Positions 45,291 through 48,200 of a stretch of DNA of 64,000 bases are shown piece after piece (position 1 is the first letter of the stretch; each line of letters starts with the position of its first letter). The DNA comes from Escherichia coli. GTDB lineage: Bacteria; Pseudomonadota; Gammaproteobacteria; Enterobacterales; Enterobacteriaceae. Location of the stretch: the NCBI RefSeq assembly GCF_003334335.1, contig NZ_QOWQ01000009.1; one strand, given 5' to 3'. The position numbers were made by a program.

Positions 45291-48200
45291 ATTTGCTTAA
45301 CGTAGAGTGAAGATTAACCTATCTGCCCATTTCCCAAATGTTTAACGCGGCGCTTAACTTCTTCCTGCTTACCGGCGTTAAATGGACGTGCATCCGGGCT
45401 ACCTAAATATCCGCACACGCGGCGAGTTACCGACACACGGGAGGCGTCATGGTTACCACATTTCGGGCAAGTGAAGCCTTTGCTGGTGCACTCGAACTCA
45501 CCGGTAAAGCCACACTCGTAGCACTCATCAATCGGTGTATTGGTGCCGTAATACGGTACATGCTGATAGCTGTAATCCCAGACATCTTCCAGCGCCTTCA
45601 GGTTGTGCTGAATGTTTGGATACTCGCCGTAGCAAATGAAACCACCGTTCGCCAGCGGCGGGTAAGGCGCTTCAAAGTCGATCTTGTCGTACGGGTTCAC
45701 CTTCTTCTCCACATCGAGGTGGAAACTGTTGGTGTAGTAACCTTTATCGGTCACGCCCGGCACCACGCCAAACTCAGCAGTATCGAGACGGCAGAAGCGG
45801 TCGCACAGGTTTTCACTCGGCGTGCTGTAGAGACTGAAACCATAACCCGTTTCTTCTTTCCACTGATCCACTGCCTGACGCAGACGTTCAACAATGGCGA
45901 TACCTTTCGCGCGAAGCTGCTCGTTGTCGTAAACATGCTCGCCGCCGAACAGCGCGTTAATGGTTTCGTGGATGCCGATGTAACCCAGCGAAATAGACGC
46001 ACGACCGTTTTTGAAGATTTCAGAAACATCATCGTCAGCATTGAGACGCACGCCACAAGCACCTTCCATATAGAGGATCGGGGCCACGCGCGCTTTCACG
46101 CCTTCGAGACGAGCGATACGGGTCATCAGCGCCTTACGTGCCAGCACCAGACGTTCATCCAGCAGCTTCCAGAAGGTGGCTTCATCGCCTTTTGCTTCCA
46201 GAGCAATACGCGGCAGGTTCAGGCTGATCACGCCGAGGTTGTTACGACCATCGTGGATCTGCTCGCCGTTTTCATTTTCCCACACGCCGAGGAAGCTGCG
46301 GCAGCCCATCGGGGTTTTAAACGAACCGGTGACTTTCACTACCTGATCGTAGTTCAGGATATCCGGATACATGCGCTTGCTTGCGCACTCCAGCGCCAGC
46401 TGTTTGATGTCGTAGTTCGGATCGCCTTTTTTATGGTTCAGACCATCGCGAATCGCAAACACCAGTTTCGGGAACACCGCAGTTTTACGGTTTTTACCGA
46501 GACCTGCGATACGGTTACGCAGGATAGATTCCTGAATCAGGCGCGATTCCCAGCTGGTGCCCAGACCAAAACCAAAAGTTACAAACGGCGTTTGACCGTT
46601 GGCGGTATGCAGGGTGTTTACTTCGTACTCCAGCGACTGGAAGGCATCGTAGCACTCTTTAATGGTACGAGAGTTAGCGTAGCCTTCTGCGTCCGGGATG
46701 CTCCACTCTTCTGCGGTCTTGCGATGTTTGTTGTAGCTGGCGGTGACAAACGGTGCCAGCACTTCATCGATACGGTTAATGGTGGTGCCGCCATAAATAT
46801 GGCTGGCAACCTGAGCAATAATCTGCGCAGTTACCGCGGTTGCCGTTGAGATCGACTTCGGCGGTTCAATCTCGGCGTTCCCCATTTTAAAGCCCTGGGT
46901 CAGCATGCCTTTCAGGTCGATCAACATGCAGTTGAACATCGGGAAAAACGGTGAGTAATCGAGATCGTGATAGTGAATATCGCCACGCTCATGTGCCTGC
47001 ACCACGTCACGCGGCAGCAGGTGCTGACGTGCATAGTGTTTAGCCACGATCCCGGCCAGCAGGTCGCGCTGGGTTGGAATCACCTTGCTGTCTTTGTTGG
47101 CGTTTTCGTTGAGTAACGAGGCGTTGGTCTGCTCGACCAGACCACGGATCTCCTGGTTCAGGCGACCGCGTTTTTCACGTTCAATGTCGCGATCGTGACG
47201 GTACTCGATGTAAGCACGAGCCAGTTGTTTGTATGGACCCGACATCAGCTGGTTTTCAACTGCGGTCTGGATCTCATTGATATCCACCTGGTTGCGGCCC
47301 TGCATCTGCTCGCTGACAACCGCGGCAACAGTGGCGCAATAATCGGCATCATCGACTTCCGCTGCTTTAGCTGCACGCAGAATCGCTTCTTTGATGCGCT
47401 CTGATTTAAACGGCACTTTGCAGCCGTCTCGTTTCATCACATGCGGTGTCATGATCGCTCCATATTTTTAAGAACAGGTTATCCACAGAAATTGGGAAAG
47501 GCGTTTTCCGGTTTTTTCGTTTCGTTTTCCGGTGCTTTCCGCAATCGCCATCCGCTTATCCACAACGCCGCACCTTTTTCGTGGGGAGCTGTAGTAGCAA
47601 TTATAGTCGATTAATACAACATATTGGGTTGGGACGCATTTTAAAGTCTATATATAGTGCTTTGCATCAAGGATGTTTGAACTTTTTTTGATGTAGCTCA
47701 AAGTAAAAAGCAGAGCGTACGGATGACGGGCGCTACAGCGTTATGTAAATTTTTTAATGAATTTGCTGGTTGAAAAATCAACAAAAACAACATGCTGACA
47801 GACAAAACCCCGGAATGACCGGCATTACCGGGGCTTAGGGAAGATTTACTTCTGTAACCACCAGACAGCCTCAAAAGGCCGTAAATTCATGGCACAGGGT
47901 TGTGGTGAGGCTTCTTCGTAGTTATGCATCACAAGCTGCCAGTTGCCGCGCATTTGCCCTGGCTGCCAGGGTTGGATCTCACGGCTAAGGTTGGCAATGA
48001 CCAGCAAGGTTTGCCCCTTCCATTCACGGCGATAGCACCACAATACAGGGCTGTTTGGCAGCAGATCCTGGTAATTGCCCCATGTCAGGATGGCTTCCTG
48101 CTTACGCAGTGCGATTAACTTTTGGTAGGTGTAAAACACCGAGGAATCATCGGCCAGCGCGGCTTCTACGTTGATTTGTTGATAGTTATCGCCCAGGCCA

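What the first reader, a model, noticed from the sequence alone, without database searches (positions are those of the whole stretch)
47600..47710. nrdDG upstream region with NrdR-like and FNR-like boxes
A 16-bp NrdR-like palindrome (47645-47660) and a TTGAT-N4-CTCAA FNR-like site (47688-47701) lie 190-250 bp upstream of the nrdD start. The exact operator positions relative to the transcription start cannot be fixed from sequence alone.
Basis: partly seen in the sequence, partly recalled or inferred. Interest (0 to 1): 0.3.

Follow-up and report, generated by a model that had tools for sequence, protein, structure and literature searches.

The report
Known E. coli nrdDG promoter operators

Summary
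The window is E. coli chromosome (treR-treB-treC-nrdD-nrdG, all on the minus strand). Both motifs are at the stated coordinates.

- 47645-47660 is NrdR box 1.
- 47688-47701 is the distal FNR site, FNR-2, centred at -64.5.

- NrdR box 2 lies at 47614-47629, 31 bp from box 1.
- The proximal FNR site, FNR-1, lies at 47657-47670, centred at -33.5 and 31 bp from FNR-2. It overlaps NrdR box 1 by 4 bp.

Neither motif stands out from chance as a single match. The pairs do:

- A matrix trained only on nrdAB and nrdHIEF boxes ranks the two nrdDG boxes first and second of 63,985 positions. Their pair score is 27.7; the best in 200 random windows was 20.3.
- An FNR tandem of this quality is expected 0.08 times per window.

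All four sites keep fixed spacing in about 85 Enterobacteriaceae species.

Published work covers the same DNA:

- NrdR binding in vitro (Kd about 160 nM).
- An FNR ChIP-seq peak with exactly this motif.
- FNR dimers occupying both sites.
- Box mutagenesis in Salmonella.

Mechanism: anaerobic FNR activates the promoter. dATP/ATP-loaded NrdR covers -30 to +17 and represses it.

Two conserved DnaA boxes in the leader are also already published. Verdict: already known, low interest.

The parts
47688..47701 (-). FNR-2, the distal FNR site. Reads TTGAGCTACATCAA on the nrdD strand, centred at -64.5 (-71 to -58).
   Evidence: One mismatch to the consensus. It is the motif under the FNR ChIP-seq peak, PWM score 15.68 (PMC3688515 supplement). 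It is part of the 54-mer bound by two FNR dimers (PMC10245656). The TTG and TCAA positions are invariant in 24 genera.
47657..47670 (-). FNR-1, the proximal FNR site. Reads TTGATGCAAAGCAC, centred at -33.5 (-40 to -27). It overlaps NrdR box 1 by 4 bp (47657-47660).
   Evidence: Two mismatches, 31 bp from FNR-2. The position is given in PMC10245656. It is nearly invariant in Enterobacteriaceae, mostly as TTGATGCAAATCAC.
47645..47660 (-). NrdR box 1. Reads GCACTATATATAGACT (-30 to -15).
   Evidence: Ranks first of 63,985 positions with a matrix trained on non-nrdDG boxes. It is underlined as a box in the 57-bp probe of PMC12176259. CACTAyATATAG is conserved.
47638..47643 (-). Probable -10 hexamer TAAAAT (-13 to -8), lying between the two NrdR boxes.
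   Evidence: Read from the sequence. Its position is consistent with the published FNR site positions. It is conserved as TAAAAT or TAGAAT in 24 genera. This is an inference, not mapped here.
47630..47630 (-). Transcription start (+1), inferred. It gives a 178-nt leader.
   Evidence: Computed from the FNR site centres (47694.5 and 47663.5) and the published -64.5 and -33.5 positions. I could not reach a primary TSS record.
47614..47629 (-). NrdR box 2. Reads ACCCAATATGTTGTAT (+2 to +17).
   Evidence: Ranks second of 63,985 positions, exactly 31 bp from box 1. It is in the same bound 57-bp probe and is conserved.
47556..47564 (+). Distal DnaA box TTATCCACA in the nrdD leader (+67 to +75).
   Evidence: Exact consensus. 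Invariant in 24 genera. A DnaA ChIP-seq peak sits at window position about 47531 (PMC11317965).
47468..47487 (+). Proximal double DnaA box TTAAGAACA-gg-TTATCCACA (+144 to +163), just upstream of the ribosome-binding site.
   Evidence: The perfect box is at 47479-47487. This double box is listed in PMC11317965. TGTGGATAACCTGTT is invariant in 23 of 24 aligned sequences; one Escherichia genome, E. coli E69, has TGTGTATAA.
45314..47452 (-). nrdD coding sequence (712 codons), the regulated gene.
   Evidence: ORF list. RefSeq annotation of a genome whose treC-nrdD intergenic region is identical to the window.
44692..45156 (-). nrdG coding sequence (154 codons), the second gene of the operon.
47805..47836 (-). 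treC terminator hairpin, the upstream limit of the nrdDG control region.
   Evidence: Folds at -17.1 kcal/mol with z = -3.0 and is followed by a U run.

Best explanation
This is the control region of the E. coli anaerobic (class III) ribonucleotide reductase operon nrdDG. It integrates an oxygen signal and a deoxynucleotide-pool signal.

Oxygen signal. Without oxygen, the [4Fe-4S] FNR dimer binds the distal site FNR-2 (-64.5), which is required for activation. It also binds the weaker proximal site FNR-1 (-33.5), which boosts activation. [quoted passage not shown]

Nucleotide signal. [quoted passage not shown] The boxes bracket the -10 element and the start site, covering -30 to +17. Bound NrdR should therefore exclude RNA polymerase. 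Because box 1 shares 4 bp with FNR-1, it should also exclude FNR from the proximal site. When dATP is low, NrdR adopts non-binding oligomers and the promoter is freed.

What is shown and what is inferred:
- Shown here: sequence, coordinates, spacing, statistics and conservation.
- Shown in the literature: NrdR binding to this DNA, FNR occupancy in vivo and in vitro, and the effect of box mutations in Salmonella.
- Inferred: the polymerase-occlusion step and NrdR/FNR-1 competition in E. coli.
For: Identity of the locus:
- The intergenic region matches all 5,426 complete E. coli genomes, and 100% identical copies exist.
- It differs from K-12 at three positions, all outside the operators.
- The gene context is treC-nrdD-nrdG.

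NrdR sites:
- An independent matrix ranks the two boxes first and second in the window, 31 bp apart, with a pair score above every random window.
- The 57-bp probe in PMC12176259 equals window 47664-47608 exactly. It binds NrdR with Kd 160 nM (ATP-dATP) or 152 nM (ADP-dATP), and shows no binding with ATP alone.

FNR sites:
- The motif TTGATGTAGCTCAA and the ChIP-seq summit at nrdD map to 47688-47705 (PMC3688515).
- nrdD and nrdG expression ratios of 0.36 and 0.27 appear in that paper's supplementary expression table. I did not read the file's header, so the comparison is not confirmed, although values below 1 would fit FNR activation.
- Both sites are occupied by FNR dimers in anoxic SAXS. The same paper reports Roca et al. 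2008: sites at -64.5 and -33.5, site 2 necessary and sufficient, site 1 auxiliary (PMC10245656).

Genetics and conservation:
- In Salmonella, box mutations change nrdDG-lacZ expression, and the authors note the box 1/FNR overlap (PMC2892513).
- All four sites keep fixed spacing in about 85 Enterobacteriaceae species, while the flanks drift.
- Other Enterobacterales families keep the NrdR pair, and most also have one distal FNR-like site.
Against: - The transcription start was not verified from primary data here. It is back-calculated from positions quoted in a secondary source. Boston and Atlung 2003, Roca 2008 and Torrents 2007 could not be read.
- FNR centred at -33.5 is an unusual position for an activator, so how site 1 helps is not understood. 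The SAXS authors say the same.
- NrdR competition with FNR-1 and with polymerase is proposed, not demonstrated, for E. coli.
- As isolated motifs, neither site is statistically distinguishable from chance in the window.
Confidence: 0.95

Rival explanations
1. The two motifs are chance matches in an AT-rich intergenic region, and the real operators lie elsewhere.
For: Single-motif counts do not exceed shuffled expectation. Random 64-kb windows often contain a box scoring as high as 14 bits.
Against: The paired boxes at 31 bp exceed all 200 random windows. An FNR tandem is expected 0.08 times per window. Positions are invariant across genera. Protein binding to exactly this DNA has been published.
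Confidence: 0.01
2. The TTGAT-N4-CTCAA site is used by CRP or another CRP/FNR-family protein, not by FNR.
For: CRP and FNR half-sites are similar (established knowledge). No experiment was run here.
Against: The conserved half-sites are TTG...TCAA (T, not G, at the discriminating first position) in all 24 genera. There is an FNR ChIP-seq peak with this motif. FNR binds the 54-mer.
Confidence: 0.02
3. The TATATATAG palindrome is mainly a promoter element and NrdR binding is incidental. Candidates are a -10-like TATA element or the plus-strand TTGGGA-18-TATAGT match.
For: The promoter scan reports one plus-strand sigma-70-like match at 47629-47658.
Against: That scan found 1 match against 0.9 expected. 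There is no gene to transcribe in that direction before the converging treC end. Box 2, which is not TATA-like, is conserved at exactly 31 bp. NrdR binds the pair with nanomolar affinity.
Confidence: 0.02

Closest known systems
E. coli K-12 nrdDG promoter (FNR sites 1 and 2; NrdR boxes 1 and 2)
   Same: It is the same locus. All four operators, the -10 element and the leader are identical to MG1655.
   Different: There are three single-base differences in the 393-bp intergenic region, at 47794, 47741 and 47681. One (T for C at 47681) lies in the spacer between the two FNR sites, and none lies in an operator.
NrdR operators of E. coli nrdHIEF and nrdAB (box 1 + box 2)
   Same: Two 16-bp palindromic boxes separated by a 15-bp linker. 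They overlap the core promoter and show similar affinity for dATP/ATP-loaded NrdR.
   Different: Only at nrdDG does box 1 overlap an activator (FNR) site. The co-regulators also differ: Fur and IscR at nrdHIEF, DnaA and H-NS at nrdAB.
Salmonella Typhimurium nrdDG promoter
   Same: The same four-site layout. Box mutations there alter expression, and the authors noted the box 1/FNR overlap. Salmonella subspecies align column for column.
   Different: Salmonella FNR-1 is closer to consensus (TTGATGCAAATCAC, 1 mismatch) and its FNR-2 is weaker (TTGTTCTACGTCAA).

Membership tests
NrdR operator (tandem NrdR boxes) | A 16-bp palindromic box matching the NrdR box pattern. | tested here: met
   A matrix built only from nrdAB and nrdHIEF boxes scores 47645-47660 at 14.2 bits and 47614-47629 at 13.6 bits, ranks 1 and 2 of 63,985.
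NrdR operator (tandem NrdR boxes) | Two boxes 31-32 bp apart centre to centre (15-16 bp linker). | tested here: met
   The spacing is exactly 31 bp. The pair score of 27.7 compares with a maximum of 20.3 in 200 random windows. The spacing is 31 bp (32 in a few) in nearly all of the 98 loci scanned.
NrdR operator (tandem NrdR boxes) | Located in the promoter of a ribonucleotide reductase operon. | tested here: met
   The boxes lie 162-208 bp upstream of the nrdD ATG and bracket the -10 element and the inferred start.
NrdR operator (tandem NrdR boxes) | Bound by NrdR in a nucleotide-dependent way. | not testable with these tools
   Literature only. The probe identical to 47664-47608 binds with Kd 160 nM (ATP-dATP) and shows no binding with ATP alone (PMC12176259).
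FNR-activated promoter | A site matching TTGAT-N4-ATCAA. | tested here: met
   FNR-2 has 1 mismatch and FNR-1 has 2 mismatches.
FNR-activated promoter | The site is conserved at orthologous promoters. | tested here: met
   TTG...TCAA of FNR-2 is invariant in 24 genera. FNR-1 is nearly invariant.
FNR-activated promoter | In vivo occupancy and FNR-dependent expression. | not testable with these tools
   Literature only. There is a ChIP-seq peak summit within the site. nrdD and nrdG ratios of 0.36 and 0.27 appear in a supplementary expression table whose header I did not read (PMC3688515).
FNR-activated promoter | The site is centred at a canonical activating position (near -41.5 or -61.5). | tested here: inconclusive
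   With +1 at 47630 the centres are -64.5 and -33.5, as published. The first is near class I spacing and the second is atypical. The start site itself is inferred, not re-measured.

The most novel reading that the evidence does not exclude
The region may hold one more, unassigned input. A block at 47716-47735 (-86 to -105, GCGCCCGyCATCyGTAC) is conserved across Enterobacteriaceae, and I could not match it to a regulator. In addition, the two invariant DnaA boxes in the leader could act as a transcriptional roadblock that couples anaerobic dNTP synthesis to replication-initiator status. In Budviciaceae and Affinibrenneria a DnaA box instead abuts NrdR box 2. DnaA binding here has been published (2024), but its regulatory effect on nrdDG has not been established.
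Probability: 0.2. Interest if true: 0.3.

Novelty: already known. Interest (0 to 1): 0.07.

Why it matters
It adds nothing to what is known. This promoter is a textbook case of combining an oxygen sensor (FNR) with a nucleotide-pool sensor (NrdR) to decide when the oxygen-sensitive ribonucleotide reductase is made. The value of this check is a clean coordinate map of all elements in the window, and a demonstration that the motif pairs, not the single motifs, carry the statistical and evolutionary signal.

Tried and rejected
- Single-motif counting gave no enrichment over shuffles. Paired-site tests replaced it.
- The Rfam scan of 47300-48000 found only sub-threshold chance hits.
- The 178-nt leader folds no better than shuffles, z = -1.2. 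Its sequence is not conserved outside the DnaA boxes. A riboswitch or leader-RNA reading is therefore rejected.
- The plus-strand promoter-like match at 47629-47658 is at chance level.
- Primary papers for the start site could not be retrieved: Boston and Atlung 2003, Torrents 2007, Roca 2008, Cendra 2013 and Thomason 2015.
- The Cappable-seq supplement held no entry at the expected coordinates.
- I found no regulator match by eye for the conserved -86 to -105 block. NarL, IscR, ArcA and PurR consensus sequences were considered from memory only.

Full report
**Locus.** The 393-bp stretch between the two flanking ORFs matches all 5,426 complete E. coli genomes, many at 100% identity. In an identical record the genes are treR-treB-treC-nrdD-nrdG-cybC-pmbA. 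In the window all the tre and nrd genes are on the minus strand. nrdD is 45314-47452 and nrdG is 44692-45156. K-12 MG1655 (NC_000913.3) coordinates equal the window coordinate plus 4,415,208. The window differs from K-12 at three intergenic positions (47794, 47741, 47681), none inside an operator. A strong hairpin followed by a U run at 47805-47836 (minus strand) ends treC. The nrdDG control region is therefore about 47453-47800.

**Observation.** The plus strand at 47645-47660 is AGTCTATATATAGTGC, and at 47688-47701 it is TTGATGTAGCTCAA. Taken singly, neither exceeds chance:
- FNR consensus with at most 1 mismatch occurs 5 times, against 2.8 expected.
- The palindrome core with up to 3 mismatches occurs once, against 1.1 expected.
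- Random windows usually contain a box scoring about 12 bits, and up to 18.6.

**What is really there.** Read on the nrdD strand, the region holds four operators with regular spacing:

| Element | Sequence | Window coordinates |
|---|---|---|
| FNR-2 | TTGAGCTACATCAA | 47701-47688 |
| FNR-1 | TTGATGCAAAGCAC | 47670-47657 |
| NrdR box 1 | GCACTATATATAGACT | 47660-47645 |
| -10-like hexamer | TAAAAT | 47643-47638 |
| NrdR box 2 | ACCCAATATGTTGTAT | 47629-47614 |

The two FNR sites are 31 bp apart and the two NrdR boxes are 31 bp apart. FNR-1 and box 1 share 4 bp.

I built a position matrix from the four boxes of nrdAB and nrdHIEF only, taken from oligonucleotides printed in PMC12176259. It ranks box 1 and box 2 first and second among 63,985 window positions. 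Their pair score of 27.7 bits exceeds the best pair in each of 200 resampled windows, where the maximum was 20.3. A tandem made of one FNR site with at most 1 mismatch and one with at most 2 mismatches, 15-45 bp apart, is expected 0.08 times per window.

**Comparative evidence.** A degenerate pattern for the NrdD N-terminus (KRDGCKVPF) retrieved 108 Enterobacterales loci, one genome per species. Of these, 98 had enough upstream sequence.
- In 85 loci, including the window itself, the NrdR pair sits about 195-220 bp upstream of the ATG with 31-bp spacing.
- In most of these loci FNR-2 starts 41 bp and FNR-1 starts 10 bp upstream of box 1.
- In a 24-genus alignment these are invariant or nearly so: the TTG and TCAA of FNR-2, nearly all of FNR-1, CACTAyATATAG of box 1, the -10 element, and CCnAnATnTTGTAT of box 2. 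The rest of the leader drifts.
- Most Enterobacteriaceae have a better FNR-1 (…ATCAC) than Escherichia (…AGCAC). Some divergent Escherichia genomes, including E. whittamii, have TTAAT…AGCAC.
- Of the 13 loci examined from Budviciaceae, Erwiniaceae, Pectobacteriaceae and Yersiniaceae plus one divergent MAG, most keep the NrdR pair and a single distal FNR-like site about 39-40 bp upstream of box 1. None has a recognisable FNR-1.

**Published experiments on this DNA.**
- The 57-bp nrdDG probe of PMC12176259 is identical to window 47664-47608. It consists of two 16-bp boxes, a 15-bp linker and 5-bp flanks. E. coli NrdR binds it with Kd 160 nM (ATP-dATP) or 152 nM (ADP-dATP), and does not bind with ATP alone.
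- The FNR ChIP-seq study PMC3688515 lists a peak at nrdD with the motif TTGATGTAGCTCAA at 4460919 (old K-12 numbering), which equals window 47688. The summits fall at window 47694-47705. The PWM score is 15.68. nrdD and nrdG ratios of 0.36 and 0.27 appear in a supplementary expression table. I did not read that file's header, so I cannot confirm the comparison behind the ratios.
- PMC10245656 shows two [4Fe-4S] FNR dimers on a 54-mer spanning both sites. It quotes Roca et al. 2008 for site centres at -64.5 and -33.5 and for the hierarchy of the two sites.
- PMC2892513 shows that mutating the boxes in Salmonella alters nrdDG-lacZ expression. It also points out the box 1/FNR overlap.

**Positions relative to the start.** The published -64.5 and -33.5, combined with site centres at 47694.5 and 47663.5, give +1 at about 47630.

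| Element | Position relative to +1 |
|---|---|
| FNR-2 | -71 to -58 |
| FNR-1 | -40 to -27 |
| NrdR box 1 | -30 to -15 |
| -10 hexamer | -13 to -8 |
| NrdR box 2 | +2 to +17 |
| Leader length | 178 nt |

This start is inferred.

**Mechanism.**
- Anaerobic FNR activates from the distal site, helped by the proximal site.
- dATP/ATP-loaded tetrameric NrdR spans the core promoter. This should block RNA polymerase and, through the 4-bp overlap, block FNR at site 1.
- Low dATP converts NrdR to non-binding forms and releases the promoter.

Binding and occupancy are shown in the literature. Occlusion and competition in E. coli are inferred from the geometry.

**Other things seen.**
- The leader carries two perfect DnaA boxes (TTATCCACA on the plus strand) at 47479-47487 and 47556-47564. 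These are the only two in the window.
- 82 of 98 loci keep two such boxes, at about -112 and -34 from the ATG. They are the most conserved elements of the leader.
- A 2024 ChIP-seq paper already reports a DnaA peak here, at 4462739 (window 47531), with the proximal double box. A 2025 study notes NrdD over-expression in DARS2 mutants.
- The leader RNA shows no significant fold and no Rfam match.
- A conserved block at 47716-47735 remains unassigned.

**Verdict.** Everything found is already described in the literature, so novelty is nil and interest is low.

Noticed in passing
window 47479-47487 and 47556-47564 (plus strand): Two perfect DnaA boxes (TTATCCACA) lie in the nrdD 5' leader, and they are the only two in the 64-kb window. 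82 of 98 Enterobacterales loci keep both at fixed positions. DnaA binding here was reported by ChIP-seq in 2024 (PMC11317965), but the regulatory consequence is untested.
   Followed up: yes
L063, L081, L071, L048, L090 (nrdD upstream regions): In Budviciaceae and Affinibrenneria a DnaA box in the opposite orientation (TTATCCACA on the sense strand) directly abuts or lies 1-3 bp after NrdR box 2. The DnaA-nrdD association therefore persists across families, with a different layout.
   Followed up: partly
window 47716-47735 (minus strand, about -86 to -105): A block reading GCGCCCGyCATCyGTAC upstream of FNR-2 is conserved across Enterobacteriaceae genera. I could assign no regulator to it.
   Followed up: partly
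window 47657-47670, and loci L015, L083, L096, L099: FNR-1 is weaker in Escherichia (AGCAC half-site) than in most Enterobacteriaceae (ATCAC). It is further degraded to TTAAT...AGCAC in some divergent Escherichia genomes. Of the 13 loci examined outside the E. coli-type layout (Budviciaceae, Erwiniaceae, Pectobacteriaceae, Yersiniaceae, one MAG), none has a recognisable FNR-1.
   Followed up: partly
window 58244-58257: A perfect FNR consensus, TTGATAGCCATCAA, lies inside the bdcA coding sequence by K-12 coordinate transfer. It is probably a non-functional intragenic match.
   Followed up: partly
window 50697-50774: Three FNR-like sites with 1-2 mismatches cluster inside the treB coding region (50697, 50742, 50761). 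This is likely chance.
   Followed up: no
window 47681: The window has T where K-12 has C, in the spacer between the two FNR sites. This is one of only three intergenic differences from MG1655, and none touches an operator.
   Followed up: yes
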